The position numbers and the translations under genes were made by a program. The notes beneath the pieces are model-generated. The model ran no database searches. It was not told the origin of the DNA and saw nothing but the letters and a program-made list of their open reading frames with translations. From a virus, in the IMG/VR virus record IMGVR_UViG_3300037010_002844, positions 64,001-128,000 of that record: 64,000 bases of DNA. One strand, written 5' to 3'. Positions 13,592-50,566 of the stretch are shown piece by piece. Within the stretch, counting starts at the first letter, position 1. The number at the start of each line of letters is the position of its first letter.

Positions 13592-13662
13592 GTCTAAATT
13601 GTCCTCAATTTGAGGTGATAGTTCAAGGCATCAGACTCCCAGACGCGGTACACCGTGAAGCC

Positions 13663-14414: not shown

Positions 14415-14772
14415 GCGTCGTCTCCTTCTTTTCTAGCAACTGTAGGTCATATCCACTGACAAGTGCACACTTGAGCGTCGGATGCAACGTTACGAATGCG
14501 TCAAACTTCTCCCTAGCATCATCACGCCACCAGCCCTTGACTTCCACGTACACCCGCTTAAAGAGCTCCAACGTCGGTCATTGACGATGGAAGATCATGT
14601 ACGCCTCTCTTGTGAGCTGGATCCTGATCTCCTCCTCGCTGAAGCCCTCGTCCATGCAATGACGCCAGTTGTCATACAGGTCGACGACGCCATTCTTTCC
14701 GTTCCCGTTGCCCGCTGAGTGCAGAAAGTACAAAGGGGCGCTACGATGAGCGGAGCGCGTCCGTACAATCAC
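14383..14772 (-). pseudogene. T7 endonuclease I-like homing endonuclease remnant with an in-frame TGA (intein-5 gap).
   Basis: ORFs 14578..14772 and 14383..14571 are in the same frame and are separated only by TGA 14578-14580. VYVEVKGWWRDDAREKFDAFVTLHPTL resembles T7 endonuclease I FVETKGLWESDDRKKHLLIREQHPEL as I recall it. The upstream PD motif is not preserved. Confidence 0.55.
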
Positions 14773-14856
14773 ATGTTGCGGAGTCGTGGGCCTGTTGCGT
14801 CTCTGTAAGGCGACATGGCCACGGTCGCGGCGAAACCTGCGACCAAAACGCCCGCC

Positions 14857-15333: not shown

Positions 15334-15351
15334 GTCTTTGTAAAGGTACTT

Positions 15352-17151
15352 TCACAGGTCCATAACGTACACCGCGTTGGAGCAACCAAAGATCTTAAAA
15401 AGCCTGTGTTCCATCGCCATCTCTTCTTGTGATGCGATCCCCGGAATCGCCCTGACAGCAAATCTATCGATACGATTTTGTCCGTCCGTCCACCAAAACC
15501 TAGGCTGCGTCATGTGATCAAATCTAAAACCAGATAGTTCATACGCCCGGCCAGTGCCACCCAACCTCATGTCACGGTATGTGATCATTTTTTGGTAACC
15601 ATGCTCACGTGACCAATCCCTGGCAGCGTTGATCAACCGCGACATGCCTCCAACGACGATGGTATCGCGGGCCGTTGAAACCCGCGCCAATTCAATTGTC
15701 TTAGATCCCCACTTAGTCTGCTGGTGCGGTTTTCGCAATGTCAATGCACAAATAATGTTTCCAGCAATGTCCTCTAGCCAGAACGAATGCGACGAAGGAG
15801 TGTTTCCATCGAGGTGATTGTTCGCCATGAACTGAGCGGTGATGGCTGGACGACCGCTGCGAAGATGTAGCTTTCGTGCCATCACGCGAGTAGCAAGACC
15901 AAGCTTTACCCTGATCATGCTTTTGATGATGTTTTTCTTTACATCATGGTGCCATTCATCGTCGAAGATATGTAGCAACGACACACCACGCTCAAGAGCG
16001 CGAGTCGACTTGTCTTGGTGATACGATGGTGGAGTACCGGTCGCCTCACTGTGCCAATAGACACCGTTGCACTCGATGGCAATCCTTCCGTTACCTGACA
16101 CGATGTCCAGCTCATAAGGCGCGATTGACTGTCTGTCGTTGGCGATGGCGTTCGAATCGAGCTTGACGAAGAAATCGAACACCTCACGATGCCAGCGAGA
16201 GAAATTAGCCGGGTAGCACGTTGAACACACCTTTCCCTTGTAAAGGACGTTAAAGGGAACAATATCAGGTACGTTACAACTGACGCATGTCACATGCACC
16301 GGTGTTGAGTATCCAGCAAACTCAAATTTTTCGATGTTCCACCTCGACCGCAGTGCATCAACTCGCCGTTCGACCTCTTCGAGAGACAACCGAAAAGGAG
16401 AGTTAGTGCCGTTCTCGATAAGGCGTTTTCTAGTCTCGATGATCGAACGTTTGATATCTTCAGAATTAGCGTTCCGAGACCAATGATTCAAGCGAACGCC
16501 TTCGCCGATCCGTTCTGATCGCCGTTTGATCCTATCGTCAGTTTCTGACGTCTGACCGTGCTGCGTCCAGTGTTTTTCTACTTGCCATTTTTCAGTCAAT
16601 GCTCGAGAGATGTTATGCGCAGCTCTTGTGATAGATTCATTATTTTCTTTAGTTTGTCCTGTTCTCCAGTGCCCGTGTTTTTTGATGAAATCACGACAAC
16701 CTTGTGCGGCCCTTCGAACCGATTCAGACGTTGTTTCTGACAGCCCCTTGTTCCATGCAGGCAATGATTTTGATTTCCGGCTAAGCGCACCTCTTACTTG
16801 AGAGTTCTTCTTGCTACAAACTCCACAGAGACGTTCATATCCCGTTTGAAAGGTCATGAACTTGACCGGCCCTGAACACTGAACGCACGGTCCAGGGTGC
16901 TCTCGAAAAAGAAGGTACGCAGCCTCCGCATTGAGCCCGTGCTTTTTAAGGAGATGTGCGCGGAGCGAATTTAGGCTAGCTTTTCGCAATGGATCATTGC
17001 ACTGTGGGCACCTCGAAGGACACGATGTCATCGCCGGGCCCGAGCTCCCTCGCAAGGATGGTGCCCCTGTTGCTGGTGACGATTCGTTGGTCGCCGTAGA
17101 CGCCTCGTGTCGTTCCATCGTCGAGTTGGATCTCAAACCACCCTCTTTCAT
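15352..17151 (-). mobile_element. Free-standing homing-endonuclease gene (zinc finger, NUMOD3-like repeats, Vsr-like nuclease, conserved C-terminal domain) at junction 4.
   Basis: Contains CPQCNDPL...HLLKKH, WNKGLSETTSESV and TGQTKENNESI repeats, and YELDIVSGNGRIAIECNGVYWHSE. The C-terminus is YRDMRLGGTGRAYELSGFRF...FWWTD...IFGCSNAVYVMDL. It is a paralog of 17837..19570. The true start is probably an internal Met (17118 or 17031), because the track start overlaps fragment 4. Confidence 0.75.
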
Positions 17152-17851
17152 GTCGTTCCTTTTTGATGATGAGCTCGATGGCGCGCTCGATGAGCCGCAT
17201 CGTTTCTAGACCTAGGAGGTCGTACTTGATGAACTCTCCGATCTTCTCAAGGTGTTTATAATTTACGCCCTCGACCCAAGGTGACTGTGGCTCGCGGACG
17301 CCGGCCTTGCCTTTGGACGTCACCAAAGGCATCTTGTTGGGCAAATCGTCTGCAATCAGCACACCACCCGCGTGACGACCGAGACTACGATTCTGCTTGA
17401 AGAGGATCTTGATCGACTCGGCGACGACCGGGTACTTCTCAATGAAGCCGCGAAACGACGGGCTGACCGGCTGCTTACACTCTGGGCTACAGCCCTGGCA
17501 GATGGACTTCGACTCCGGGCCCTTAGGAGCCCTGCAGTGGAAGGCCATGGCCTCATCGTAGGTCAAGACGAACAGATTCTTGTCGTCGCCTTCCTTCATC
17601 GTCGCCTTACGGACCTCGTCCTCGACGGTCCGCGTGGCAGCGTTGGTCTCCTCGAATGGGATGCCGTAGAACTTGCCGATATCCTTTACAAGCGTTTTTA
17701 GTTTGAAACAGTTATAATTGCTGATGGGAACGACGTTTTCCCACCCAAAAAAGTTTCGAAGTTCATCAAGAACCTCATCTCGCCTGGCAAGATCGGTGTT
17801 GTGAACAACGACGCTCTTGTTGGACGCCAAAAATGAATGAACGACCATCAC
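16994..17851 (-). CDS. dnaE: DnaE fragment 4: very short C-intein 3, palm/fingers extein, degenerate N-intein remnant.
   Basis: Starts MVVHSFLASNKSVVVHN (17798-17848, ATG at 17848). The extein is TDLARRDEVLDELRNFFGWENVV...SLGRHAGGVLI...IKYDLLGLETMRLIERA. The tail at 16997-17140 is WFEIQLDDGTTRGVYGDQRIVTSNRGTILARELGPGDDIVSFEVPTVQ. Confidence 0.85.
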   Translation of the reverse strand: MMVVHSFLASNKSVVVHNTDLARRDEVLDELRNFFGWENVVPISNYNCFKLKTLVKDIGKFYGIPFEETNAATRTVEDEVRKATMKEGDDKNLFVLTYDEAMAFHCRAPKGPESKSICQGCSPECKQPVSPSFRGFIEKYPVVAESIKILFKQNRSLGRHAGGVLIADDLPNKMPLVTSKGKAGVREPQSPWVEGVNYKHLEKIGEFIKYDLLGLETMRLIERAIELIIKKERHERGWFEIQLDDGTTRGVYGDQRIVTSNRGTILARELGPGDDIVSFEVPTVQ

Positions 17852-19570
17852 ATGAATCCTAACTCAACTACAGTTGAATTTACATGCGCTCGTTGTGGTC
17901 GAAACCACGAAACGCTACGAGCATTGAAGATCCACGAGGCACGACACAGGCGAGAAGACGCCAGGCCTCCCAAACAGGTGTCAACTTACGCGTGTCCGTG
18001 GTGTGAGGCGTCATATGACAGCGGGCGTAAGTTGACATTGCACTGCACAAAAACGCACCAAAAATCACCCGTCGTTGTGTATGAAACAAGGTACCCAGGG
18101 TGCAGGAAGACGTGCATCGATTGTTGCGACTGGGTCAGGTTCATCGATCAAGAAAAAGGATACCCCGAACGGTGTCCACGTTGTAGCCGAAAACACGCAT
18201 ACGCGTCCAAGGGCACCTCGTCATGGAACAAAGGCCTGACGAAAGACAATGACGAACGCATGTCAGCCAGTGCTGCAAACATGCGAGCTCACTACAAGGA
18301 ACACGGTCACCACAACTCCGACAAGACAAAGGAAAACAACGAAAGCCTTAAACAAAAGGCGGCAAAAATCAGCGACAGCCTGCGGAGGTATTATGCAACG
18401 CACAGCGGCTGGTCACTTGGCCTGACAAAGGATACGTCTAGCATCATTGAATCTCGCAGTAAGAAGATCAGCGCTTCGTTGAAAGGACGATTCTTTAGCG
18501 ACGTAACGCTTGAAAAAATGCGCAAGGCAAAGTTGCTGACGCACGACGAGGTACAAAAACGCCTCAAAGAAAAGCAGCTTAAACTCATTGACGAATATGT
18601 CGATACTGTCACCAAAGCGCGCATCGAATGCACGATATGTTCAACAATATTTGAGCGTTGCGTTGGCGCAGTGTTCAACAACGAGGCCAAGTGTCCCACC
18701 TGCTTTCCGCCTTGGTCAGACAAAACGAGCAGGTGGCAACAGGACGTCTACGCATTTATCCAGACGCTGGCACCTGACGCAGTCCTTAGCGATCGTAAGA
18801 CGCTCGGCGGAATGGAGCTCGACATACTCATTCCATCGCGCATGTTTGCCATCGAGTGCAATGGCCTATACTGGCACAGCGAGGCCGCCAATAGATTTGA
18901 GCACGATCACGCGGAAAAGAAGAGATTGCTGTCCCTCAAAGCCGGCGTATCGCTTTTCACGTTATTTGAGGATGAGTGGCGCGACAAACGACCGATAATC
19001 GAAAGCATGTTGCGCCATCGCCTTGGGTTTTCTACCAAAGTCGATGCGCGTAAGTTGAAAGCAGAACGCTGCGAGCCCGAAGAAGTTCGAGAATTCATCA
19101 ATCAGTGCCACCTCGACGGTCACGTGAGGGCCCAATTTGCCGTGCGATTGGTAACCTCATCGGGCGAAATCGTAGGCGCCTGCAGCCTTAGGTGGGCACG
19201 AAATGGGGCAGACAGAACGACGATTGAGATCGCTCGCCTGTGCTTCAAGCTTGGCACACATGTACGAGGCGGGGTGTCAAAATTGCTATCAAAGGCAAAA
19301 GCTATAGCAAGAGAAAACAATGCAGCGAGGTTGATGTCTTACTCAGACAATCGCTTGGGAGGAAACGGTTATGCCACCTCAGGCATGAAGTTCAACGGTA
19401 CCACAGTCGCTCGCTTCTGGTGGACTGACTTCATGCATCGTTACGACAGGTTCAAGTACCGAGCCAACAAGAAGCAAGGTCTAACAGAAAAACAGGTAGC
19501 GGAGGCTGCCGGCGTTTATCGCATCTATGGCTGTAGCAACTCTCGCTACGTCTTAGACGTCACAGCGTGA
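17837..19570 (+). mobile_element. Homing-endonuclease gene on the opposite strand inside the intein-3 gap (C2H2-like finger, NUMOD3-like repeats, Vsr-like nuclease, conserved C-terminal domain).
   Basis: Contains CARCGRNHETLRALKIHEARH, then WNKGLTKDNDERM and SDKTKENNESL and GLTKDTSSIIESRSKKIS, then MELDILIPSRMFAIECNGLYWHSE. The C-terminus is YSDNRLGGNGYATSGMKF...FWWTD...IYGCSNSRYVLDV. Its ATG at 17837 overlaps, head to head, the ATG at 17848 of fragment 4. Confidence 0.8.
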
Positions 19571-19872
19571 CGCTAATGTCATCGTCAAACTTTGAGGACG
19601 CATTTTCTTTGAGCCAGAAGATGGCGTCAATTGTGCGCTCGTCGGCGTCGGCGTCATCGCACGACGTAGCCCCATAGTATGGGGGCCAAATCGTGCTCAA
19701 ACCCTTTAACGCGCAGTTTGACCTGACAATCTTGAAATTCAGGATTTTCTGCAGCTCTCGTCTGAGCTATTCTTTCCAGGCCAGACACTATCACATCATC
19801 TGCTCGGCAGAATCGCCGTTGTCTGTAAGCTGCACCGCATCAACGTTGCTCGGACACGGTCCCAACTCCAGC

Positions 19873-20610
19873 TCAAATTTCATAGTTGCGCTCGCTGTGG
19901 TCTGTTCTTCTCTTAGACGCGCACCAATCGCTGCAAAAATTGTCTCCTTCGCCACACGCAAGGAACGTGCCAGGAATGACGCCCATGCAATAACCGACGT
20001 CATGTGATGGATCACCTCCACTTAGAATGGACGTATTGAACGGTACCACGTGGAATCTGTGATCGTCTTCAACAGTCAGGTCGACGTATCTAGCGTTGGA
20101 AGAGCCCCAACCACCGTGCTCGATCGATACGACCTCAACGCTGCCGCATGATGCCATCAATTCATCTCCGACCTTAAGGTCGCGGCAGTACACGATGACG
20201 CCGTCAGCTCTGACAAATTTGTGACCGGGCACCACCAAAATGTGGCCCAACGTACCATCATTGGCCCTAACTCTGACCCAGACAGCGTCCTCGAATGGCC
20301 GCAAATTTCTAGCATAGGTCGCAGTTACTGCGTGTGGCATTCCATCGCCTCCCAGGACGACGTCGCCGACAATGATGTCAACAGCTCGCTTATGAGTGCC
20401 GTCTGTCATGACGACAAGATGGTCCTCGTGGACGCAGTCGATATCAGGAGCACCAGAGTTATGTGTCAGCACCCAATCGCTATCGTTGTTGGACACCCAA
20501 AACGTATGCTGGCCTTCGACCTCGATGTCGATGAGTTCTACACTTTCATCGACAACCTCGATAGCTTCAATTTTGGCCGTGCTTGCTGATGAGATGTTGG
20601 GTTCCTGCAT
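19873..20610 (-). CDS. dnaE: DnaE fragment 3: C-intein 2, 7-aa extein, long N-intein 3.
   Basis: C-intein 2 at 20458-20610 ends ELIDIEVEGQHTFWVSNNDSDWVLTHN. The extein SGAPDID is at 20437-20457. N-intein 3 runs down from 20436 as CVHEDHLVVMTDG...VVPGHKF...ARYVDLTVEDDHRF (to about 20053). About 60 unrelated codons follow. Confidence 0.8.
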   Translation of the reverse strand: MQEPNISSASTAKIEAIEVVDESVELIDIEVEGQHTFWVSNNDSDWVLTHNSGAPDIDCVHEDHLVVMTDGTHKRAVDIIVGDVVLGGDGMPHAVTATYARNLRPFEDAVWVRVRANDGTLGHILVVPGHKFVRADGVIVYCRDLKVGDELMASCGSVEVVSIEHGGWGSSNARYVDLTVEDDHRFHVVPFNTSILSGGDPSHDVGYCMGVIPGTFLACGEGDNFCSDWCASKRRTDHSERNYEI

Positions 20611-21532
20611 AGTCCCTGTGCTCTAGATTGGCAATCGTATGGTACAAACCTTGTCGACGAAGTTCACCATAGAAGTCATTCATGTACACGACGTCGATGC
20701 GCTGACCAGACGCCACAACGACTTCCCGTGAACGTGCGTTTGAGTTAAGCAACTTTGAGAAACGCGATTTGCCTTCTCGCACACCTTTCAACTCCACGTA
20801 TCGGTCCTCATCACTGAACCAAAAGTCTGGAGTGTAACACTTCTCTTTGCCATCGATGACAACATGGAAAGACCTATGTTCATAGAATGGCATCTTACCG
20901 AGGTGCAAGCAATATCTGTAGTAGTCGGCTTCGAACGAGCTCTTGAAGTACGGGCTGTTTAGGATGTCGGAACGAAAACACGAGCGTCCGTTCACATGTG
21001 AAGCAACCATATCACGTGACTGTGCCTCGCGGGTGCACCGTTTGGAACAGAACCGCGGCACGTAGCTCTTCTTGGTGACGATCGGTTCGCTACAAACTTC
21101 GCATACCAACGTGTGGCGGTCAAACCTCGATGCAGCGAAACATTTGGGTGAACAGAACCTGCGATTGACGTTCTTCGTTGAGAAAGTGCCTAGACACTGT
21201 ACACATGTCAGTGTACGGAGCTCATTCTTTGTCAGCGCTTTCGCAGTGTACTTGTGCCTGCACGCATTCGAACATAGTTTTCTGTTGTTGTGACACTTTG
21301 GAACGTAGAACTCATCGCCGTACTCGACGCACGTCTTCACAAGCCTCGAGGGCATGGGAGCGTGTGACATCAGCTTCCTGTGAGCGACGGCACACTCATC
21401 AGTGCAGTACGGGCGATGGAGCCTACTACCAGAACCCTTGCAGTTGGGCTCATAGTTGAACTGAAACATAATACCACAGTGTTTACACTGTTTCTCAATG
21501 ATGCTCATAGTGGTACGTGTACAGCTCGTCAC
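20567..21532 (-). mobile_element. Free-standing homing-endonuclease gene in the intein-2 gap (four CxxC...FCSxxC zinc modules plus a T7 endonuclease I-like PD-(D/E)XK domain).
   Basis: The repeats are CKHCG...RPYCTDEC, CVEYG...RKLCSNAC, CVQCL...RRFCSPKC and CEVCS...PRFCSKRC. The C-terminal KCYTPDFWFSDEDRYVELKGVREGKSRFSKL matches the T7 endo I YTPDF...FVETKG core as recalled. Confidence 0.7.
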
Positions 21533-21992
21533 TCGTCGACAGCTCAGATGTATACTTCTTCACAGGTTGTCCATCAGGACCCACTGTCAACCACACATGA
21601 TTTTCAGAACACGTGAACGTAGTACCATTCACCTTCACGCGGTACGTCTTCTCATGTTTTGTGGTCATGGTGAACGTAACTTTACGGTGTGAGCCATCCT
21701 GTGAGACAACGCTGTCACCGACTTTCACGTCTCGAAGCGCGGACGACGAACCATCTGACATCAATACCTTTGTGTCTGGCGACAGACACCTGTGAACGCT
21801 AAGGAATCGCGCGAAAGGCAGGTCCCAGAACAACGGGTCCAAGTCGGTGATGTATAGGACGTAGGCGACCAGAGAGCCACCGCCCGAATTGTGGACTGCA
21901 ATACCTTCCACGTTGTAAGTGTGGCTGTTTTCCACACACAGGTCTACGACCTCACCCTTATACGGTACGACAGTCTTACTTCTGAGCTTCAT
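21495..21992 (-). CDS. dnaE: DnaE fragment 2: C-intein 1, 33-aa extein, N-intein 2.
   Basis: C-intein 1 at 21888-21992 is [35 protein letters not shown]. The extein at 21789-21887 is [33 protein letters not shown], matching the DnaE GSAAGSLVAY..ITDIDP..FERFLNPER region. N-intein 2 at 21498-21788 is [13 protein letters not shown]...CSENHVW. Confidence 0.85.
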
Positions 21993-22076
21993 GATATGCG
22001 TTCGCTCTCTTCATGTAAGCCTTGAGATCCCTGTCTAATAGACATTTGACGAGGATCAGGTAAACTTAGTTGAGTT

Positions 22077-23762
22077 TCATTCAACCTCGATTAGGTCATC
22101 ATCTTCAGTCAAGTGTTGTGCTTCAATCCACCCACGATTCTTCGTCAGAAACTTATGCTCCTTGGTGCACCTGATCTTCTTACCGTCATCAAACTCGAGT
22201 TCTAGCAGCTCCTCATCAACCTGATACCTGAAGATCTGAGTCACCATCTGATCAACACCATATGCATCCTTGATAACGTCGCCCACCTTGATGGTGCCAA
22301 TGGGAGCATGCATGCCGTCAGCCATTAGAACCCGCGTCTCAGGAACGAAACAACCGCGGGCTGGGCCGGTAAGGCACACATTGCGTGCCAGCTCCATGAT
22401 CTTCTGGTAGGAAATGAAGTAGTCAGAGTTTTTCATCACCTTAATGACGCCGAGTTCCTCCTTGAGGCGCGCGATATACTCTGGCTTGTCTTGAAGACCA
22501 CGCTTCACCATGCCCACCTTACAAAGCGAGATGAGGTGATTGAACGAGGTCGTGCCTTCGGGCACCAACAACCTCGTCGGAAACTTGGGCGAACGATCGG
22601 GTGGAATCTCCCCGATGACACTGTGTGCGATATCGTGAGTCCGCTCAATGGCGTCACAGACGACTTCATCGTCATACCAGTCGGTGCCTTCCTTGGAGCG
22701 CTGGTACTCATCCCACATCTGTTGGGCGTTCTTCGGATAGAGCTCACACTTCAGCTCATCCTTCGACTTCGGAATCGCGTCAGGATTGATCTCCTGGTAG
22801 TTCATCCAACCCAGGCGCTTGTAGAGCTCACGGTCCTTCCAACGATCGGGATTATAGTAGTGAGCATCGCCGGTGACGATCAGCTGCTTGTTGAGCCCAT
22901 TGCGACGAGCGAACTCCAGGATCGCGCGGTTGACGAGGTTCTGCGCCGGTAGGCGATTGAACTGCAGCTCGAGGAAGTAGTTTCCTTCGCCGACTGCATC
23001 GACCATGTGCTGGTAGGTATTGCCCACCGCGACAACGCATTTCTCGAGCAGCACAGGGTCACTGAGCAACCGTGCGTCGAGCTCGTCAAACTTGTACTGT
23101 TGGATTTCCTGGAATATGGAGTACGCCGGCATGCCGCCGATACAAGCGCTGCTGACGATGATGTCGCCGCCTTTGGCTGCCTCTTTGAGGACAGCATGGT
23201 CAATGCGCGGGAACTTGTAGAAGCCCTTCAAGAATCCCTTCGAACATGCTGCGAAGATCGCCAACAGGCCCTTCTGGTTCTTGGGCAGAATGACTAGGTG
23301 ATGCCGTCGGTTGACGGGATTGAAGTGTTTGGTCGATTTGGACTCTTCCTCGTTTTCGACAGTCAAGGCGTTGGACATCTCAATGTCCTCAGTCTCATCA
23401 TTTTCATCGATGGTGGCGATGATCTTGGTCTGCAGCTTTTCCTGCTCCTTAGCAAGCTTGGCCGCAACCCTCCTGTCTCCCTTCGCCTGCTCTGCGAGTT
23501 CGACGTCCTTCTTCCATTGCTCCAGGTCGGGATGGTAGTACGCCTCGACGCCGGGAATGTACTTGAACGACTTTCCCTTATTGGCCTTGGCCCACTCCTC
23601 GACCCACAGTTGAGCGTGGGCATAGGAGTTCATGTTCCCGTGCTCGGTGATGGCATGGCCATCGAGCCCGTTCTCCATGCACCACTTGAAGTGTTCATCG
23701 GGATAGCCCAAACCATCGAAGGGCGCATTACGAGAAGCCCGTGTGGTTGTGCAAACCGACAA
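22077..23762 (-). CDS. dnaE: DnaE fragment 1: PHP and N-terminal half, plus N-intein 1.
   Basis: Contains FDGLGYPDEHFKWCMENGLDGHAITEHGNMNSYAHAQ (PHP) and ends ...CLTGPARG, followed by N-intein 1 at 22080-22352 (CFVPETRVLMADG...CTKEHKFLTKNRGWIEAQHLTEDDDLIEVE*). The track start (TTG 23762) is an artefact. The real N-terminus is in another frame (see 23728..23820). Confidence 0.85.
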   Translation of the reverse strand: MSVCTTTRASRNAPFDGLGYPDEHFKWCMENGLDGHAITEHGNMNSYAHAQLWVEEWAKANKGKSFKYIPGVEAYYHPDLEQWKKDVELAEQAKGDRRVAAKLAKEQEKLQTKIIATIDENDETEDIEMSNALTVENEEESKSTKHFNPVNRRHHLVILPKNQKGLLAIFAACSKGFLKGFYKFPRIDHAVLKEAAKGGDIIVSSACIGGMPAYSIFQEIQQYKFDELDARLLSDPVLLEKCVVAVGNTYQHMVDAVGEGNYFLELQFNRLPAQNLVNRAILEFARRNGLNKQLIVTGDAHYYNPDRWKDRELYKRLGWMNYQEINPDAIPKSKDELKCELYPKNAQQMWDEYQRSKEGTDWYDDEVVCDAIERTHDIAHSVIGEIPPDRSPKFPTRLLVPEGTTSFNHLISLCKVGMVKRGLQDKPEYIARLKEELGVIKVMKNSDYFISYQKIMELARNVCLTGPARGCFVPETRVLMADGMHAPIGTIKVGDVIKDAYGVDQMVTQIFRYQVDEELLELEFDDGKKIRCTKEHKFLTKNRGWIEAQHLTEDDDLIEVE

Positions 23763-23820
23763 ATCGTCGGGGCACTCGCACCGAGCTTCCCTTGGCGTCC
23801 TCCTTTCCTTGCTGCGTCAT
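23728..23820 (-). other. dnaE: True 5' end of dnaE (PHP motif I), out of frame with the rest of fragment 1.
   Basis: ATG 23820-23818 (ATGA overlap with the upstream stop) gives MTQQGKEDAKGSSVRVPRRFVGLHNHTGFS, then TAA at 23730-23728. Removing one base in tcg-t-aat would read ...GFSNAPFDGLGYPDEH, the canonical PHP HxH...DG continuation. Confidence 0.7.
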
Positions 23821-42266: not shown

Positions 42267-43031
42267 TCAGACGTACAGTGCGCGGAGATTGCCGTCAGGC
42301 ATCACCAGCTCGAACGCCTCGAGGCTGGCCTGAAATTGTCCGGTCATCTGGGCGAGCTTCAGCATCGCTTCCGCGATGTGCCGCACTTCGACCTGAGCGT
42401 GCTTCGAGTAGCGCAGCCTCAGGAAGTGGACGAAGCTTCGAAAGTTGAACATCACGTCAGCCGTGATCTGATTGCCGTAAGGTAGATAGAACCTCGCGGT
42501 CTCCTTGGCGCGCTTGCGTGGCACTCCCTTGGTCACGAGTCGCTCCAACGTTTCATGGTAGCGTTCCATCGCCTGTTCCATGTGATCGATGTAACGAGCA
42601 CGTTCTTCATCGTCCCAATCGAATGGCACGTAGTACTTGTCGTCCTTCAGCTCCTTATATCGAGCCGATTCTGCATTGACAGAAACGCCGATGCGGTGCT
42701 TGATCAGGTGGATGTGCGTGGCAATGTCAGTCGTCACCAGGAAGTGCAGAGACGACTTCTCGAAAGGCGTCTCGTGACCAGCAGAAGCGAGGTCCTTCAA
42801 CAACTTCGGAAGTCGGGCACGCTTCTCGTCGGTCAGATCCCGCGAGGTACTGGTCCAGGCTGACATGGCATGGCTCTGATCGCCACCGTAGATGCCGACC
42901 AGCTCGACGGTGTTGGGACCAGCGCCTTTGCCCTTGATCTTGATGGGCTCCGGAGGAGGCGAAGAAATAGTCGGCACCTCAACTTGGGGCTGAGAACCTT
43001 TGCTGGTTTTTGCGGATTTCTTCTGCTTCAT
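42267..43031 (-). CDS. thyX: FAD-dependent thymidylate synthase ThyX.
   Basis: ThyX signature IKHRIGVSVNAESARY (RHR..S......S.RY). Confidence 0.9.
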   Translation of the reverse strand: MKQKKSAKTSKGSQPQVEVPTISSPPPEPIKIKGKGAGPNTVELVGIYGGDQSHAMSAWTSTSRDLTDEKRARLPKLLKDLASAGHETPFEKSSLHFLVTTDIATHIHLIKHRIGVSVNAESARYKELKDDKYYVPFDWDDEERARYIDHMEQAMERYHETLERLVTKGVPRKRAKETARFYLPYGNQITADVMFNFRSFVHFLRLRYSKHAQVEVRHIAEAMLKLAQMTGQFQASLEAFELVMPDGNLRALYV

Positions 43032-44404: not shown

Positions 44405-47400
44405 TCACCCGCATTTGCTGTTTCCGCAGTTCATGCAAGTAACGCATCCCTGCTGATAGGCGAGCGACGTCGAGGCACAGATCGGGCAACACTTTTCCTG
44501 CGTTGCCTTGGTCCCATCCACGATGTAGTGCTTGCTCAACGTTCGCGCGATAACCGTCGAGAACGAGAACAGATCGCTGTGCTTGTCCTTGCGGAGCTGC
44601 TCGACGACAAGGTGAACTGGTACTCCATGTCGAAGTGTCATCGACAAGGTTCGAGTGTGCGCTCCGTACAACGGATTGTCGAAGAGGTTGACAATGTCCT
44701 TATAGAGAAGGAAATTGTCGTCCAGGTCGACGCGGAGGTTGTACGTGGACACCCCGTCAGCGTTCTTGCCGTTCTTGATGAGGACGCCCTTCTTGGCCTT
44801 CCTCGGGACTTCAACCTGTTCTGACAGTCCGGCGAACAGCTCGTAAGGCTTGCCGTTCATGAGGCCCACGAAGACCAGGTACTTCTCACCCTTGATCGAA
44901 ACGTGGTGAATGTCACACTCCAGCTCCTTCGGACGCTTCAGAGAGTGAGACTCGGCGATATTCTTGGGTTGGTCCGCCGCTGTCTTCTTCTCGTCCTTGA
45001 TGAGGACGCCATCACGAGAACCATCTCGATAGATGGTGACGCCCTTGCAACCAGTCTCCCAACCGCGCATGTAGATCTGCTTCACCACATCGACCGGCGT
45101 GTCACTCGGAATGTTGGTGGTGTTCGAGATGGAGTGACAGACCCACTTCTGAGCTGCGGCCTGGACGTCGATCTTCTTGACCCAGTCGATGTCATTCGAC
45201 GTGGCACCGAAGTAAGGCGACTTTTCCACGTCGGTCTCACCAGTGACGTCCATCCACTTCTTGAATCCGTGGTGATAGACCGTGTACTCCTGCCACTTGT
45301 CGCCCATGGCGTCAACGAAGTCGACACGAGCATCCAAGTCATTCGGATTGATCTTCTTCCTTCGCTTGTAGCTCAGGAGGAAGGCGGGCTCGCAGCCAGA
45401 TGTAGTCTGGGTCAAGATGGAGACAGAGCCAGCTGGCGCTGTCGTCGTCAAGGCGATGTTGCGACGTCCATAGAGACGATACTGATCACGGAGCTCATGA
45501 TCAGCGTCCATCACTTGTTCAATGAAAGGATGTCCCTCTTCCACCTTGTGGGAAAAAATCGGGAAGGGACCACGATCACGTGCCATCTCAACAGTCGAGC
45601 GGTAGGCACCCAACGCGAGGCCCTTATAGATCTGCTCAGTGACGTTGATAGACTCGTCCGAACCGTACTTGATGTTGAGGTAGGCCAAGGCATCGCCCAA
45701 GGCAGTGATGCCCAAGCCGGTGCGACGACCATTGATTGCAGTGTTGCGGATCTTGGTCCATAGCTCGATTTCGGGCCGCTTCACGTCAGCGGGCTCAGGG
45801 TCATTCTCGATCTTCTGCATGATTCGATCAATGGCCTCGAGCTCCAGGTCGACGAGATCGTCCATCAACTTCTGCGCCTTCTTAACAACATCGTTGAAGC
45901 GCACGAAGTCAAAACTGGCGTGAGGAGTAAATGGATCTCTGACGAAGCGAGCGAGGTTGACGAGAAGCAAACGACATGAATCGTAAGGCGACAGCGTAAT
46001 CTCACCGCATTGTTCGCTAGCGATTATTACGTTTGCTTGATTTTGGAACTGTACAAGCTTTTCGTCACCAACATACATGCACAGTGTGTGCTCTCCGTCG
46101 ACAGTGCCGTTGTACACGTCTTCGACACCCGCGGGTTCAACGCTGATCACGCGGTGATTGTGCAATGCCGCGGCCTCTTTCAGGGCAGACCAGGACGCAA
46201 AACCGTTTTTGGTACCGATTCGTGCCGGCACATCCAAGCGTCGACATTCGGCAACCCACTCTCTTCCCAAGGGCTCTCTACCCAACGTAAACCTAAGTGA
46301 GGTAAAGGCGTCAAGTTGCTGTTTTCGCGTTACTTCTGCACGATCAGCGTGAAGCTTCTTCAGGTTCTCTGCCCGTGCAACGTTCTTATTGGCCTTCCTG
46401 TTTGCGTAGAGGTTGGAACACGAATGTGAGCAGAATGCCTGTTCACGTCGGCAGTACGGCAGCGCGAACATTTCGTTGCACCACTCACACGTCCGGTTGA
46501 CGTACAGCTCACCGTCGATCACATCGACATCATAACCTTCTTCAAGGGCCTGAACGTACGTACGTTGAATCCTCGTGTCGAGTTCTGGTGTTGAGATGTC
46601 GACCTCTCGAGCCGCCCAGCACGACAGGTCGTAGAAGCTTCCCAGCTCGCTGCGACGCCAGGCCGAAAACGACATCGGCAGCGACCGTTGTTTAGCGTAA
46701 GCGTACCACTCGTTCAGTGAAACGCGGCGGCCGAGCGACCGGGTCAACCCCAGCACGTGTTGGCGGATGTCATCATTGGTGACGTTGTCATAGGCACGCG
46801 GATTGTTGGCCCCACCGACGCTCTCGCTCATCTTCGCCGAATATTCAGCAAACTTGCCAGCGACTTTATGAGCAACCCAAAGTTGATCGCCATTCAACAG
46901 CTCGTCGACTCGCTTCCGGGATCCGTCACGCATGATCATCGTGTGGTTTCCGGTGGCCTTAAAAGTGTGACCTCCCTCAATGGTCACCTTGAACACAGGA
47001 ACTCCCTTACCGGTAAGCCTAGGATTCCTCATCAGGCGGATGCCAATTTTTCCTGTGGCCTCCTGGTAACAATAGACCGGCAAGTCCTTGCCTTCGTCAG
47101 CTAGCTGCTTGATGGGCACGTAACCCCTTCCGTCAGCGACGGCGATAAGAGTTTCTCCCGTAATGCACGGGTTGGTGCTCGTCGAGCCGTAACCAAACGC
47201 AGCGTAGGCATCTGCTGGCCCGCGGCGCAGGACAGTGTCCCAGAACAGCAAACCGGGTTCAGCAGATTCCCATGCTGCCTGGATGATCTCATGCCACAGT
47301 TGGCGAGCGTCTACCTGTTCCTCGACGATGTGAGGAACGTCTTTGTCAACTGGAAACCGCAGTTGAACCTGCGTACCCGCCTTAACGGCGTTCATGAACT

Positions 47401-48046
47401 CGTCTGTCAAACGAATCGATATGTTGGCGCCCGTGACCTTCTTCTTGTTCTTCTTGATGTTGATGAAGGTGCGAATCTCCGGGTGGTGCACCGACACTGT
47501 CAACATCAGCGCGCCTCGGCGGCCGCCTTGGGCCACCTCGCGACAGGTATTACTGTAGCGCTCCATGAAGATGCCCAGGCCATCGGTGGTGCGGGCAGCG
47601 TTGGCAGTCTCGATACCCTTCGGGCGAATCGTCGAGATGTCAAAACCCACGCCGCCGCGACGCTTCATGATCTGCGCCTGTTCCTGGTCAGTCTTTAGGA
47701 TGCCGCCATAGGAATCATAAGGGCTCTCGATAACGAAGCAGTTGCTCAACGACTGAAACTGGTACGGATTGCCAACTGCCGACATGGGTGATCCCTGTGG
47801 GACCACGTCCCATGAAGAGAAGAGCTCATAGATCTCTTGCTCTGACATGGCGTTCGGATACCGTGTCTCGATGCGAGCAAACTCCCGCGCCTCGCGCCGG
47901 TGCATGTCGTCAGGGGTAGCCTCGTAAATGTTTCCCTTAAGATCCTGCAGCGCATACTTGCCTGCAAAGACCTCACCCGCCAGCTCATCTCCACGAAAAT
48001 ACTCGATCGACGCATCGCGAACGTGCTGATACGTGAAAGTCCTCAT
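44405..48046 (-). CDS. nrdJ: Class II (adenosylcobalamin-dependent) ribonucleotide reductase NrdJ, interrupted by one contiguous intein.
   Basis: N-terminal YFRGDELAGEVFAGKYALQD; GGVGFDISTIRPKG; the active-site TNP[intein]CGEITL; and a C-terminal CCPICAS...CVTCMNCGNSKCG zinc module. Confidence 0.9.
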   Translation of the reverse strand: MRTFTYQHVRDASIEYFRGDELAGEVFAGKYALQDLKGNIYEATPDDMHRREAREFARIETRYPNAMSEQEIYELFSSWDVVPQGSPMSAVGNPYQFQSLSNCFVIESPYDSYGGILKTDQEQAQIMKRRGGVGFDISTIRPKGIETANAARTTDGLGIFMERYSNTCREVAQGGRRGALMLTVSVHHPEIRTFINIKKNKKKVTGANISIRLTDEFMNAVKAGTQVQLRFPVDKDVPHIVEEQVDARQLWHEIIQAAWESAEPGLLFWDTVLRRGPADAYAAFGYGSTSTNPCITGETLIAVADGRGYVPIKQLADEGKDLPVYCYQEATGKIGIRLMRNPRLTGKGVPVFKVTIEGGHTFKATGNHTMIMRDGSRKRVDELLNGDQLWVAHKVAGKFAEYSAKMSESVGGANNPRAYDNVTNDDIRQHVLGLTRSLGRRVSLNEWYAYAKQRSLPMSFSAWRRSELGSFYDLSCWAAREVDISTPELDTRIQRTYVQALEEGYDVDVIDGELYVNRTCEWCNEMFALPYCRREQAFCSHSCSNLYANRKANKNVARAENLKKLHADRAEVTRKQQLDAFTSLRFTLGREPLGREWVAECRRLDVPARIGTKNGFASWSALKEAAALHNHRVISVEPAGVEDVYNGTVDGEHTLCMYVGDEKLVQFQNQANVIIASEQCGEITLSPYDSCRLLLVNLARFVRDPFTPHASFDFVRFNDVVKKAQKLMDDLVDLELEAIDRIMQKIENDPEPADVKRPEIELWTKIRNTAINGRRTGLGITALGDALAYLNIKYGSDESINVTEQIYKGLALGAYRSTVEMARDRGPFPIFSHKVEEGHPFIEQVMDADHELRDQYRLYGRRNIALTTTAPAGSVSILTQTTSGCEPAFLLSYKRRKKINPNDLDARVDFVDAMGDKWQEYTVYHHGFKKWMDVTGETDVEKSPYFGATSNDIDWVKKIDVQAAAQKWVCHSISNTTNIPSDTPVDVVKQIYMRGWETGCKGVTIYRDGSRDGVLIKDEKKTAADQPKNIAESHSLKRPKELECDIHHVSIKGEKYLVFVGLMNGKPYELFAGLSEQVEVPRKAKKGVLIKNGKNADGVSTYNLRVDLDDNFLLYKDIVNLFDNPLYGAHTRTLSMTLRHGVPVHLVVEQLRKDKHSDLFSFSTVIARTLSKHYIVDGTKATQEKCCPICASTSLAYQQGCVTCMNCGNSKCG
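46010..47167 (-). mobile_element. 386-aa intein in the NrdJ TNPCGE active-site motif.
   Basis: Residues 294-679. Starts CITGETLIAVADG, has block B GNHTM, and ends ANVIIASEQ followed by +1 Cys. Internal modules are two homing-endonuclease-associated-repeat-like segments (LGRRVSLNEWYAYAKQRSLPMSFSAWRR; LGREPLGREWVAECRRLDVPARIGTKNGFASWSALKEAA) and one CxxC...FCSxxC zinc module. I saw no LAGLIDADG, HNH or GIY-YIG motif. Confidence 0.8.
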
Positions 48047-48128: not shown

Positions 48129-49592
48129 TCAGCTCAGCCCTGAACTGCCCGAACCTTCGCTCCCTCCGTCGCCAAAGCCGGACTTTTTCATCTTGTCGCC
48201 GAGCAGGGGGTCATTGCGAAGCTCCTTCCACTTCACGCGAAGGGCGCGCTTCACTTCATCCTCGTCTTCCTTGACGGCTGCGTCCAACGAACCGGCGTTG
48301 CCAACGATCTCGAACTTGCTTTTCGAGGTATCGATTTTTACCGAATAGACGAGGCCATCACGGCCCGCACGGTTCTTGGCGACGTAGAGGCGACCAAATC
48401 CCGTAGCCTTCTCGTGAGCGCGTCTCGAGATGCTCAACACCACGTCAGCGACCATCGCCTTGCCATAGGCCTCACTCATGTTGCCAAGGTCAACAATGTC
48501 GCTGTTGGAGCCTTCCTTGTTGGACTGCGATGCGGTCCAGATTGGGATGCTCTTCTCCGCTGAGAAACCGCGAAGTTCCTCGTAGATCAGCTTCAACTCA
48601 TGACGCAGCGAATCGTACTGCCGCGTCGATCGCATGATGTCAGCGTAGTCGATGATGATGAGGCCAGGCCTGAAGCCCTTGACGTCCAACCGCTCGATGT
48701 GATTGCGAAGGGTGTAGATACTGGCCGTGTTGGTCGGGAACTCCTTGATGATGAGGCGACCCAACTTCATGCCTTTGTAGTTGTCGAGGACTTTCTCTTT
48801 GTTGTCAATGACGTGGTTAGAGTCGATGTCACAGAGGTTTGAATCATAGCGGCGGCCGACGGCCGCCTCAGAGAGCTCAAACGTGTAGTGAAGAACGTCG
48901 ACCTGATTGCGCAGTGCGTTGGCGCCCAGGAACGTCAACATGTGGCTCTTGCCCACGCCGGTGGGAGCAACGATGACGCCGATCTCGCCGCTACCCAGGC
49001 CACCGTTGAGAATGTCCTTCTTGTCGAGCTCGTCTAGTCCCGTGGCCACGCAGTTGCGTTGAAGTTGGGTGAAGCGCGCCTCGAAGTCATTAAAGAAATC
49101 ATGGCCCAATTGTGGGGCAGTGCCCACCATCACTGCCTTCTTGATGCCTTCGACAATTGACTCGTATTTCTCGGCCTGCATGTCATCGACCGCACTCTCC
49201 AGCGCGGCCTTGAGGGCCTGCTTGCGACAGAAGTCCAGCGACTTTTCCTTGACGTACTGGAGGTCACCCGGGTCAGGGTTAGCCCGCATACGCTGCAGGT
49301 AGTCGATGATCTGATCACGGAGCACCGTGTCTGTGCCCACCTTCAACTCATCACGGATGATGGTGATGAGTAGTTGCAGGGTCGGAAAGACCTTGTATTT
49401 CTTTGCGTAACCGAAATAACGATCAGCCAAGAAGGCGAGGTACTTCAGTTCTAGATACCCATTGTCAAAAACCTCGAGCATCTGCTCGGCAAACTGCCTG
49501 TCGACCAACAAGGCCTGGACGAACTTCTCCTGAAATGACTTTCCGTACGTTCCGAATGTTGCCTTGGTGGTGATCCTGTCGTCGCTCATCAT
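48129..49592 (-). CDS. dnaB: DnaB-family replicative helicase (T4 gp41-like).
   Basis: Walker A GVIVAPTGVGKSHM, Walker B LIIIDYADIM, and a RecA-like C-terminal domain. No intein. Confidence 0.85.
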   Translation of the reverse strand: MMSDDRITTKATFGTYGKSFQEKFVQALLVDRQFAEQMLEVFDNGYLELKYLAFLADRYFGYAKKYKVFPTLQLLITIIRDELKVGTDTVLRDQIIDYLQRMRANPDPGDLQYVKEKSLDFCRKQALKAALESAVDDMQAEKYESIVEGIKKAVMVGTAPQLGHDFFNDFEARFTQLQRNCVATGLDELDKKDILNGGLGSGEIGVIVAPTGVGKSHMLTFLGANALRNQVDVLHYTFELSEAAVGRRYDSNLCDIDSNHVIDNKEKVLDNYKGMKLGRLIIKEFPTNTASIYTLRNHIERLDVKGFRPGLIIIDYADIMRSTRQYDSLRHELKLIYEELRGFSAEKSIPIWTASQSNKEGSNSDIVDLGNMSEAYGKAMVADVVLSISRRAHEKATGFGRLYVAKNRAGRDGLVYSVKIDTSKSKFEIVGNAGSLDAAVKEDEDEVKRALRVKWKELRNDPLLGDKMKKSGFGDGGSEGSGSSGLS

Positions 49593-50566
49593 TCCTCTGA
49601 TTTGTTGCCTAGGTTGTCGATGCCGTTGAACGCGTAGAAGAAACCTTCTGCATCAAAGTCATTGACGCCCTCTTTGATAAGGGCCTTGATCAGCCCCATC
49701 CTATCGATGCGGGGTCTAAATGTACTGATCAGGTGGTCAACCTTCGAAGCCTGGTGCGCTGATAGCATTGAACCATCGAGGAACACCAACTTCCAGTTAC
49801 GCTTGACCTCTTCCTCATGATCAACGATACGTTGATAGAGCACGCTCTCGTCAGCATGAGAGTGACAAAACTTGAGCACGTCCTCGAGCAACACTTCCTC
49901 TTCTAGAGACAAGAAAGGCAGCACGCGAGCGACAGTCTTGAAGCCTAAACCTTTGACGCCCGGAATGTTGTCGCTCGGGTCACCACACAGTGCCTTGGCC
50001 AAGGCGAAGTTGTGAGGCTGCACTCGGAAGTCCTTGACAACGTCTTCCGGGACGATGTAGGTCTTCTTGTGCAAATTGTAGACTCGAGTGTTCTCGTCTA
50101 GCAACTGGTACATGTCCTTGTCGCTGGAAGCGATGACCTTGGGGACAGCCTTGAAGGGACCACGAGCTAGGTAGGCGATGACATCGTCACCCTCACAGTC
50201 CGAAACGTAGATCTGACAAACCGGGCAACACTTCAGCATGCCGAGCAACGCGATGATCTGGTGCTGACGATTCTCTTCTGTGTCTGGGATGTCGTCCTCA
50301 TAGAAGCGGTTTAGCTTCCCGGGTTTTCGGTTGAGCTTGTACTCGGAATAGAGGGCTCGACGCCTCTGTGAGCCTCCGCCCTCCCAAGCGATGTAGACCG
50401 CCGAAGGTCCGATCTCGTTGACGAGACGTTGAAGCGTCTTCAGGAATCCGATGCAACCGCCCATTTGGTAGCCATGGGCGCTCATCGAGGGGTACGCACT
50501 GTAGCTACGTACGAAGAGGTTCATACTATCCACAATAAGGACAGGTCTTTGTACGTTATTTTGCAT
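49589..50566 (-). CDS. 5'-3' exonuclease / flap endonuclease (T4 RNase H-like).
   Basis: N-terminal PIN-like VLIVDSMNLFVRSY. H3TH motif GDPSDNIPGVKGLGFKTVARVL. Confidence 0.85.
   Translation of the reverse strand: MQNNVQRPVLIVDSMNLFVRSYSAYPSMSAHGYQMGGCIGFLKTLQRLVNEIGPSAVYIAWEGGGSQRRRALYSEYKLNRKPGKLNRFYEDDIPDTEENRQHQIIALLGMLKCCPVCQIYVSDCEGDDVIAYLARGPFKAVPKVIASSDKDMYQLLDENTRVYNLHKKTYIVPEDVVKDFRVQPHNFALAKALCGDPSDNIPGVKGLGFKTVARVLPFLSLEEEVLLEDVLKFCHSHADESVLYQRIVDHEEEVKRNWKLVFLDGSMLSAHQASKVDHLISTFRPRIDRMGLIKALIKEGVNDFDAEGFFYAFNGIDNLGNKSEE

What the first reader, a model, noticed from the sequence alone, without database searches (positions are those of the whole stretch)
46010..47167. The NrdJ active-site intein ends in Gln, lacks the penultimate His, and has DNA-binding modules but no recognisable nuclease
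The RNR motif TNPCGE is interrupted after TNP by a 386-aa insert, CITGETLIAVADG ... ANVIIASEQ, followed by CGEITL. The C-terminal residue is Gln rather than Asn, and the residue before it is Glu rather than His (compare FIASN in DnaE inteins). Between the splicing blocks lie two segments resembling the homing-endonuclease-associated repeat (..LGR.P...EW......LP.......F.SW..L..AA) and one CxxC...FCSxxC zinc module. I see no LAGLIDADG, HNH, GIY-YIG or PD-(D/E)XK motif. It could be a non-canonical splicer with a degenerate or novel homing domain.
Basis: partly seen in the sequence, partly recalled or inferred. Interest (0 to 1): 0.65.

Follow-up and report, generated by a model that had tools for sequence, protein, structure and literature searches.

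The report
RNR intein that lost its nuclease
The ribonucleotide reductase gene carries a self-splicing protein insert from a large, little-described family that normally ends in glutamine. This copy lacks a nuclease because a clean 96-residue deletion removed it, so it is an ordinary decaying selfish element, not a new kind of enzyme.

Summary
A 386-aa insert (window 46010-47167, minus strand) splits the class II RNR motif as TNP|CITGE...ASEQ|CGE. It has an intein (HINT) fold, ends in Glu-Gln, and carries two homologous helical repeats plus a C4 zinc module. No nuclease is detectable.

Neither feature is exceptional within its family. I recovered 127 related inteins at the same site, just before the thiyl-radical Cys:
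- 82 end in Gln and 45 in Asn.
- None has a penultimate His.
- The usual block-F Asp is Asn in 124 of the 128 aligned inteins (the 127 plus this copy).
- 114 of 127 carry an HNH_3 endonuclease core between the N-terminal splicing domain and the first repeat.

The closest relatives (L001, 76% identical in the splicing domains and 58% in the middle region, also ending ASEQ; L002; P0014) all keep the HNH. This copy has a clean in-frame deletion of about 96 aa that removed the HNH core and the first NUMOD3-like motif.

My reading is a splicing-competent, Gln-type class 1 intein with a decapitated HNH homing endonuclease. It is probably immobile and vertically inherited. Splicing and DNA binding are inferred, not shown. 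It is a new member of a known kind, and interest is low to moderate.

The parts
47168..48046 (-). N-extein of class II RNR (NrdJ), aa 1-293, ending ...STSTNP
   Evidence: Pfam Ribonuc_red_lgN and lgC. Gapless alignment of the spliced extein to 1xjk. Coordinates checked.
46010..47167 (-). Whole intein, 386 aa (ORF residues 294-679), Cys1 to Gln386
46856..47167 (-). N-terminal splicing domain (aa 1-104). It holds Cys1 (47165-47167) and the block B residues Thr72 and His75 (TGNH, 46943-46954).
   Evidence: phmmer to DnaB inteins, 1e-8. In the 128-sequence family alignment C1 is kept in 128/128, T72 in 125/128 and H75 in 128/128.
46844..46855 (-). Deletion scar: KFAE (aa 105-108). Relatives have about 96 aa here (HNH_3 core plus the first NUMOD3-like motif).
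   Evidence: L001 reads ...KVAG RFAE [about 96 aa with EHH..HVIHHVDFNGCNN..NL..H..YH] TT RFTE YSAKMS. The window reads KVAG KFAE YSAKMS. The window has zero residues in the family's HNH columns.
46784..46855 (-). Retained NUMOD3-like linker (aa 105-128, KFAEYSAKMSESVGGANNPRAYDN). It is disordered in the model.
   Evidence: Aligns to the segment that follows the HNH in L001, L002 and P0014. N122 is 91% conserved. pLDDT is below 50 for aa 108-125. NUMOD3 is only weakly detected, in relative P0002 (E 0.016).
46598..46783 (-). Helical repeat 1 (aa 129-190), a three-helix HTH-like module of the 'homing endonuclease associated repeat' type
46412..46531 (-). Beta-hairpin and C4 zinc module (aa 213-252; CEWC...FCSHSC; C227, C230, C246, C250)
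   Evidence: The four Cys are 92-97% conserved. phrog_1271, named 'HNH endonuclease', matches only this part (4e-4). Pfam zf-FCS is not significant (E 0.96).
46157..46330 (-). Helical repeat 2 (aa 280-337), preceded by a long helix (aa 248-295 in the model)
46010..46156 (-). C-terminal splicing domain (aa 338-386). Block F is VYNGTVDGEH (46088-46117), with Asn353 in place of the usual Asp and with His360. Block G is ...IIASEQ, with Gln386 at 46010-46012.
   Evidence: Alignment to the 1mi8 block F, VFDLTVPGPH. In the 128-sequence family alignment N353 is Asn in 124/128 and H360 is His in 127/128. Of the 127 relatives, 82 end in Q and 45 in N.
44405..46009 (-). C-extein of NrdJ. It starts with the +1 Cys (46007-46009), which aligns with the Cys of the TNPCGE thiyl-radical motif, and includes the stop codon.
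   Evidence: PMC2677866 describes this site as directly N-terminal to the thiyl-radical active site.

Best explanation
This is a class 1 intein of a large allelic family that sits immediately before the thiyl-radical cysteine of ribonucleotide reductases (xNP|C...|CGE).

The family has its own catalytic signature:
- Cys1, and block B Thr and His.
- Asn instead of Asp at block-F position 4, and a conserved block-F His.
- A non-His penultimate residue.
- Gln (two thirds) or Asn (one third) as the last residue, with Cys at +1.

Splicing is inferred to follow the standard four steps, with Gln386 cyclising (to a glutarimide) in step 3. This restores the TNPCGE active site.

The family's homing endonuclease is modular. 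It has an HNH_3 catalytic core, NUMOD3-like motifs, two HTH-like helical repeats and a C4 zinc module. In this copy an in-frame deletion of about 96 aa removed the HNH core and the first NUMOD3-like motif. The deletion may have occurred between short RF(A/T)E-coding direct repeats. The DNA-binding modules were left intact.

The intein can therefore presumably still splice and perhaps still bind DNA. It can no longer cut an empty allele, so it is immobile and is inherited vertically with the nrdJ gene.

Shown here: the junctions, the fold, the family statistics, the HNH in relatives, its absence in this copy, and the intact conserved residues. Inferred: splicing activity, Gln cyclisation, DNA binding, loss of mobility, and the deletion mechanism.
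For: Junctions are exact and the fold is HINT.

A phmmer search with the middle domain found 273 cluster representatives at E<=1e-3, nearly all long RNR-sized proteins. From these, 120 complete inteins were extracted, all at NP|C...|C(G/S)E.

With 7 more, the 127 relatives show:
- Last residue Q in 82 and N in 45.
- Penultimate residue never His.
- HNH segment present in 114 of 127.
In the 128-sequence alignment, which includes this copy, the F:4-equivalent residue is Asn in 124.

The HNH consensus is EHRLIA..F...G.VVHHKD.N..NN.P.NL..M....H...H. Pfam HNH_3 scores above its gathering threshold in P0001 (33.5 bits), P0002 and P0007.

The nearest relatives all keep the HNH. They are L001 (IMG/VR contig, 480-aa intein, 76% identical in the splicing domains, also ending ASEQ), L002 (ending in Asn) and P0014. 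The window has no residue in those columns, and no family-type HNH in any of its six frames.

Other HNH-less members (P0142, P0162, P0079, P0089, P0057, P0156, P0161) have different breakpoints, which indicates repeated independent losses.

All 24 middle-domain positions that are at least 80% conserved in the family are retained in this copy. The middle domain is no more diverged than L001's when both are compared with L002 and P0014.

The ORF is uninterrupted over 1213 aa. The identical protein occurs on 8 contigs, and the two places shown come from two different samples.

The literature supports each unusual feature. Gln-ending inteins splice (CIV RNR, Pab and Mma PolII), and inteins without the penultimate His can be functional (PMC4031507). 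[quoted passage not shown]
Against: - No experiment was done. Splicing competence is inferred only from conservation and an intact ORF.
- This lineage's ending (Ala-Ser-Glu-Gln) lacks the Asn at -4 that 81 of 128 members have. It has Glu at the penultimate position, which none of the 120 representatives shows. Its kinetics could therefore differ.
- The perfect retention of conserved DNA-binding residues fits a very recent deletion. It fits continued selection on that domain equally well, which the simple decay picture does not predict.
- The microhomology is seen in L001, which is only 58% identical in the middle region and 76% in the splicing domains, and is not the ancestor. L002 lacks it.
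Confidence: 0.85

Rival explanations
1. The retained DNA-binding region (NUMOD3-like motif, two HTH-like repeats, zinc module) is kept because it still does something. Possibilities are target-site binding that helps a nuclease supplied in trans, a regulatory DNA-binding role for the excised intein, or a structural role in folding of the precursor.
For: All 24 strongly conserved middle-domain positions are intact, including the four zinc Cys. There is no excess divergence relative to the HNH-bearing relative L001. The model is confident for this region (pLDDT 80-94). The identical allele is found on 8 contigs, and the two places shown come from two samples. At least two other family members (P0142, P0162) independently lost the HNH but kept the whole DNA-binding part.
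Against: A recent deletion explains the same facts. Other family members show progressive loss of these modules down to 146-170-aa mini-inteins (P0003, P0004, P0008, P0011, P0013), so the modules are dispensable for splicing. No family-type HNH is encoded elsewhere in the window.
Confidence: 0.1
2. The remaining central region is itself a novel nuclease.
For: The region is large (about 230 aa) and well folded, and it contains a metal-binding Cys4 module.
Confidence: 0.03
3. The intein no longer splices, and the nrdJ gene is a dead or decaying gene.
For: The Glu-Gln ending is unusual and the -4 Asn typical of the family is missing. Pfam Intein_splicing scores below its gathering threshold (30 vs 35.8 bits).
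Against: The 3.6-kb ORF is uninterrupted. Every family-invariant splicing residue is present (C1, T72, H75, N353, D357, H360, +1 Cys). The same ASEQ ending is conserved in L001 and P0014, despite only about 50-58% identity in the middle domain. The exteins keep RNR motifs.
Confidence: 0.05
4. The nuclease is encoded in another reading frame or on the antisense strand of the intein region, as reported for some actinophage inteins (bioRxiv 10.1101/2025.01.02.630785).
For: Precedent in the literature only.
Against: The other five frames hold no stop-free stretch longer than 127 aa across 46010-47167. The six longest have no Pfam hit at E<=1. The in-frame region is conserved and folds well, which argues against an overlapping gene.
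Confidence: 0.01

Closest known systems
Gln-type class 1 inteins: Chilo iridescent virus RNR intein, and the Pyrococcus abyssi / Methanoculleus marisnigri PolII inteins
   Same: All have a C-terminal Gln instead of Asn followed by a +1 nucleophile. The standard mechanism with Gln cyclisation is accepted, and the CIV case is also in an RNR (PMC4031507; PMC549080; PMC8175363).
   Different: [quoted passage not shown] This family has no penultimate His in 127 of 127 members and has Asn at F:4. I could not test sequence relatedness to the CIV intein here. From memory only, it carries a LAGLIDADG domain, not an HNH.
HNH-type homing-endonuclease inteins (in-frame HNH; Pfam HNH_3 with NUMOD-type DNA-binding modules)
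   Same: The relatives of this intein (P0001, P0002, P0007, L001, L002 and about 110 more) have exactly this architecture. It is a modular nuclease core plus separate DNA-binding modules, as described for HNH and GIY-YIG homing endonucleases (PMC2677866).
   Different: This copy lacks the HNH core entirely, so it is not itself an HNH intein. It is a deletion derivative.
Inteins with degenerate endonuclease domains, and mini-inteins (late stages of the homing cycle)
   Same: The nuclease is lost while splicing residues are maintained. The same family contains every stage down to mini-inteins of 146-170 aa. Surveys of phage inteins also report decaying HENs.
   Different: The loss here is one clean in-frame excision of the catalytic module, and the DNA-binding half is still pristine. 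It is not the scattered point-mutation decay typical of degenerate LAGLIDADG domains.
NrdJ-1 split intein (PDB 8ubs) and the other RNR inteins at the thiyl-radical Cys
   Different: NrdJ-1 is split, sits one residue further C-terminal, and has a free-standing endonuclease. Its sequence similarity to this intein is marginal (E 0.28).

Membership tests
Class 1 intein (HINT fold, standard four-step splicing) | In-frame insertion in a conserved host motif, with exteins that align seamlessly once the insert is removed | tested here: met
   TNP|...|CGE. The spliced sequence aligns without a gap to T. maritima NrdJ STNPCGE.
Class 1 intein (HINT fold, standard four-step splicing) | N-terminal Cys/Ser nucleophile and block B Thr-x-x-His | tested here: met
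   Cys1, and Thr72 to His75 (TGNH). These are 98-100% conserved in the family.
Class 1 intein (HINT fold, standard four-step splicing) | C-terminal cyclising residue (Asn, rarely Gln or Asp) followed by +1 Cys/Ser/Thr | tested here: met
   Gln386 followed by Cys+1. This is the accepted rare variant and the majority state in this family (82 of 127).
Class 1 intein (HINT fold, standard four-step splicing) | Penultimate His (G:6) and block-F Asp (F:4) as assisting residues | tested here: not met
   G:6 is Glu, and it is never His in the family. F:4 is Asn (124 of 128). Both residues are auxiliary and are absent in some functional inteins. Their absence is therefore not disqualifying.
Class 1 intein (HINT fold, standard four-step splicing) | HINT fold | tested here: met
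Class 1 intein (HINT fold, standard four-step splicing) | Demonstrated protein splicing | not testable with these tools
   Needs an expression or splicing assay.
HNH homing-endonuclease intein | HNH (beta-beta-alpha-metal) catalytic motif within the intein | tested here: not met
   No Pfam HNH family at E<=10. There are zero residues in the family's HNH columns. The family HNH HMM finds nothing in six frames, with positive controls at about 1e-31. Relatives do meet this feature.
Homing endonuclease associated repeat (Pfam PF18780 HNH_repeat) | Match to the Pfam model | tested here: inconclusive
   No hit for this copy at E<=10. Three of 20 relatives' middle domains hit with best E 9e-4. The two repeats are homologous to each other (hhalign 94.8%).
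FCS / TRASH-type zinc finger | CxxC...(F)CSxxC pattern with a significant model match | tested here: inconclusive
   The pattern is present and its Cys are 92-97% conserved. zf-FCS gives only E 0.96 for this copy and E 0.031 at best in relatives, and TRASH gives E 0.066 at best. All are below threshold.
NUMOD3 DNA-binding motif | Match to Pfam PF07460 | tested here: inconclusive
   Only relative P0002 gives a weak hit (E 0.016, below the gathering threshold). This copy keeps a G-x-NNP-like remnant (aa 118-124) with no hit.

The most novel reading that the evidence does not exclude
This intein family may define a mechanistically distinct sub-class of class 1 inteins. Its signature is Asn at F:4, no penultimate His, and free toggling between Gln and Asn at the terminus among close relatives (L001 ends in Gln, L002 in Asn). 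In such a sub-class, C-terminal cyclisation would be assisted by residues other than the canonical ones, for example the conserved D357 and H360 or the -4 Asn. In addition, the nuclease-less copy may keep its DNA-binding half under selection as a sequence-specific DNA-binding protein released by splicing.
Probability: 0.12. Interest if true: 0.6.

Novelty: new member of a known kind. Interest (0 to 1): 0.3.

Why it matters
For this window the finding resolves an apparent oddity into an ordinary stage of the intein homing cycle. The gene should be annotated as nrdJ with an HNH-less, Gln-type intein.

The by-product is more useful than the single case. The search recovered well over a hundred diverged inteins (273 middle-domain hits, 127 analysed) at the RNR radical-Cys site. 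In them Gln outnumbers Asn at the splice junction about 2:1, the penultimate His is never present, and block-F Asp is replaced by Asn. That is a natural mutational series for asking how step 3 of splicing is catalysed without the canonical helpers. It is also a source of compact Cys1/Cys+1 inteins for engineering.

The clean excision of the catalytic module, with the DNA-binding modules untouched, is a tidy example of the modularity of HNH homing endonucleases.

Tried and rejected
- Alternative C-terminal junction with a canonical His-Asn. Rejected: the extein alignment to 1xjk is gapless at TNP|CGE, and all 120 extracted relatives share the junction.
- Nuclease in another frame or on the antisense strand. 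No stop-free stretch longer than 127 aa and no Pfam hit.
- A trans-acting HNH of the same type elsewhere in the window. None found in six frames.
- Relation of the intein's zinc module to the Cys-rich free-standing ORFs at 11-21 kb. The module HMM hits nothing else in the window.
- Foreign composition of the intein. GC is 0.52-0.58, the same as the exteins.
- Close DNA relatives among deposited phages. None found. The only hit was one weak 65%-identity match (331 nt) within the N-extein part of the ORF. tblastn in phages finds only the N-terminal splicing domain in other RNR inteins.
- Close relatives sharing the same deletion. The IMG/VR and metagenome scans returned one locus each, and both carry the HNH. 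The age of the deletion could therefore not be estimated.
- The afdb50 fold library was unavailable.
- A literature search for 'homing endonuclease associated repeat' returned nothing.
Full report
**1. What is in the sequence**

The finding lies on the minus strand. ORF 44405..48046 (1213 aa) is a B12-dependent (class II) ribonucleotide reductase (Pfam Ribonuc_red_lgC, 2.5e-86).

After removing the insert, the 827-aa product aligns without a gap across the junction with Thermotoga maritima NrdJ (stnpcgeitlspydsc vs STNPCGEIGLSDYEAC). The junctions are therefore exact, and there is no alternative junction with a canonical His-Asn.

The insert is a genuine intein:
- Its N-terminal 100 residues match DnaB mini-inteins (1mi8, E 1e-8).

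Composition does not differ from the exteins.

**2. The central region**

The model and the family alignment divide residues 105-337 into five parts:
- A disordered linker with a G-x-NNP motif (aa 105-128).
- A three-helix module (aa 129-190).
- A beta-hairpin plus Cys4 module (CEWC...FCSHSC; C227, C230, C246, C250).
- A long helix.
- A second three-helix module (aa 280-337).

The two helical modules are homologous to each other at profile level (hhalign 94.8%, E 5e-8). Pfam's HNH_repeat (PF18780) does not hit this copy, but it hits 3 of 20 relatives' middle domains (best E 9e-4). The identification is therefore plausible but indirect.

The four Cys are 92-97% conserved. The zf-FCS and TRASH models stay below threshold.

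**3. Is there a nuclease?**

I found none, by any test available:
- Pfam at E<=10.
- PHROGs, where families named 'HNH endonuclease' match only the zinc module.
- A 20-sequence family profile against all PDB sequences.
- Pfam on 20 relatives' middle domains.
- Foldseek against viral models.

The other five reading frames across the intein hold no stop-free stretch longer than 127 aa and give no Pfam hit. This excludes the out-of-frame or antisense endonuclease arrangement recently described for actinophage inteins (bioRxiv 10.1101/2025.01.02.630785).

**4. Relatives explain the missing nuclease**

A first homology search gave 13 proteins. The best is P0001 (35% identity over 99% of the query). 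It is an intein at the same GTNP|C...|CGE site with a Pfam-significant HNH_3 domain (33.5 bits against a cut-off of 24.8). That domain lies between the N-terminal splicing domain and the first helical repeat. P0002 and P0007 are the same.

An exhaustive phmmer search with only the middle domain found 273 cluster representatives at E<=1e-3, nearly all RNR-sized proteins. From these I extracted 120 complete inteins, all flanked by NP|C and |C(G/S)E. I aligned them with the earlier ones, giving 128 sequences including the window.

In that alignment, 114 of the 127 relatives have a segment of 35 or more residues here. Its consensus is EHRLIA..F...G.VVHHKD.N..NN.P.NL..M....H...H. The window has zero residues in these columns.

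The nearest relatives all keep the HNH:
- L001 (IMG/VR contig) has a 480-aa intein that is 76% identical in the splicing domains and 58% in the middle domain. It also ends ...MIASEQ|CGE.
- L002 (metagenome) ends ...LNQN|CGE.
- P0014 is a fragment that starts in the tail of the HNH and ends ...ILIASEQ|CGE.

Compared with L001, the window lacks about 96 residues:
- L001 reads KVAG-RFAE-[HNH core and first GxNNP motif]-TT-RFTE-YSAKMS.
- The window reads KVAG-KFAE-YSAKMS.

The two RF(A/T)E-coding 12-mers in L001 (CGGTTTGCTGAG and AGATTTACCGAA) suggest deletion between short direct repeats. This is only suggestive, because L001 is not the ancestor and L002 lacks the left repeat.

A family-specific HNH HMM finds nothing in any of the six frames of the 64-kb window at E<=10. 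It scores about 1e-31 on L001 and L002.

Other HNH-less members have different breakpoints (P0142, P0162, P0079, P0089, P0057, P0156, P0161). The family also contains forms that keep only the zinc module (P0003) and mini-inteins of 146-170 aa (P0008, P0011, P0013). Loss of the nuclease has therefore happened repeatedly, as the homing-cycle model predicts.

**5. The 'non-canonical' splice junction is the family norm**

Among the 127 relatives:
- 82 end in Gln and 45 in Asn.
- The penultimate residue is Leu, Arg, Lys or another residue, and never His.

In the 128-sequence alignment, which includes the window, the residue aligned with the block-F Asp of the Ssp DnaB intein (VFDLTV vs VYNGTV) is Asn in 124 and Thr in 4. 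The remaining conservation is C1 128/128, T72 125/128, H75 128/128, D357 121/128 and H360 127/128.

Close relatives toggle between Gln (window, L001, P0014) and Asn (L002).

The window's lineage is unusual within the family only in two respects. It has Glu at the penultimate position, seen in none of the 120 representatives. It has Ala instead of the common Asn at -4. Both are shared with L001 and P0014, so they are conserved in this lineage and not degenerate.

The literature already documents that Gln-ending inteins splice. Examples are CIV RNR, where Gln is better than Asn, and the Pab and Mma PolII inteins, where it is slower. It also documents that some functional inteins lack the penultimate His and that F:4 is usually Asp (PMC4031507; PMC549080; PMC8175363).

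The insertion site, directly N-terminal to the thiyl-radical Cys, is described as the most frequent site of contiguous inteins in class I and II RNRs (PMC2677866).

**6. Most likely mechanism**

The evidence shows an intact 1213-aa ORF with all family-invariant splicing residues and the +1 Cys that aligns with the TNPCGE active-site Cys. It also shows a complete DNA-binding half of an HNH homing endonuclease and the absence of the catalytic half.

From this I infer three things:
- The precursor splices by the standard class 1 route, with Gln386 cyclisation, and regenerates TNPCGE.
- The excised intein may still bind DNA but cannot cleave.
- The element is immobile and persists because only precise removal would be tolerated at the active site.

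The identical protein occurs on 8 contigs. The two places shown come from two different samples, and four of the contigs are 0.2-1 Mb long. The allele is therefore established in a natural population with a large genome.

One observation does not settle between 'recent deletion' and 'retained function'. All 24 middle-domain positions that are at least 80% conserved in the family are intact in the window. Also, its middle domain is no more diverged than L001's from the outgroups L002 and P0014: 53% and 49% identity for the window against 45% and 45% for L001.

**7. Verdict**

I class it as a new member of a known kind, with interest 0.3.

The family-level pattern is the part most worth a specialist's attention. 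Gln outnumbers Asn, there is no penultimate His, and F:4 is Asn.

**8. Limits**

- No experiment was possible.
- The structures are predictions from shallow alignments (14 and 8 sequences).
- The family sample was seeded with the middle domain, so mini-inteins are under-represented and the 114 of 127 figure is biased upward.
- I could not test homology to the CIV RNR intein.
- I found no close relative that shares the deletion.

Noticed in passing
window 11400-23816, mostly minus strand: A DNA polymerase III alpha (DnaE) gene appears to be fractured into at least six separately encoded pieces. Each piece is flanked by split-intein halves (C-intein ...VHN|S/C at the start, N-intein C..... at the end). 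The pieces are 22077-23762 (PHP domain and start of pol3-alpha), 21495-21992, 19873-20610, 16994-17851, 14857-15333, 13815-14414 and 12329-13030. Large Cys-rich, endonuclease-like free-standing ORFs are interspersed: 20567-21532; 17837-19570 on the plus strand; 15352-17151; and 11400-12449, which has a ROS/MucR zinc finger. The arrangement resembles the 'fractured genes' of Dassa et al. 2009 (PMC2677866), but with many breaks in one gene.
   Followed up: partly
window 44405-48046; loci L003 and L004: The exact 1213-aa NrdJ precursor is on record on 8 contigs. The two places shown are from different samples (Logan SRR11727985 and JGI 3300036715), and four contigs are 0.2-1 Mb long. The window therefore comes from a large genome (jumbo phage or cellular) and not from a small phage. 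No similar deposited phage genome was found.
   Followed up: partly
window 46844-46855 vs L001:3393-4832: In relative L001 the segment missing from the window is bracketed by imperfect 12-nt direct repeats that encode RFAE and RFTE. This suggests a microhomology-mediated in-frame deletion. L002 does not have the left repeat.
   Followed up: partly
window 44405-44500 (C-terminus of NrdJ): NrdJ ends in a Cys-rich tail...KCCPICASTSLAYQQGCVTCMNCGNSKCG. From memory, this resembles the zinc-binding C-terminal tail reported for class II RNRs. Pfam gives only a weak TSCPD hit further upstream (E 0.032).
   Followed up: no
family alignment (relatives P0014-P0163, L001, L002): Between the block-F His and the C-terminus, these inteins have about 20-26 residues forming an extra beta-hairpin. 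Most have a conserved Asn at -4 (81 of 128) and Asn/Thr/Ser at -3 (typical ending NNLQ). The window's lineage has ASEQ instead. The functional meaning is unknown.
   Followed up: no
window 42267-43031, 48129-49592, 49589-50566 (minus strand): The neighbours of nrdJ are nucleotide-metabolism and replication genes: a thymidylate synthase (phrog_85 match, 4e-38; by its sequence motifs probably the flavin-dependent ThyX type, which I did not test), a DnaB-like helicase (4.5e-63) and a 5'-3' exonuclease (1.7e-28). Two small ORFs between the thymidylate synthase gene and nrdJ have no PHROG match.
   Followed up: partly
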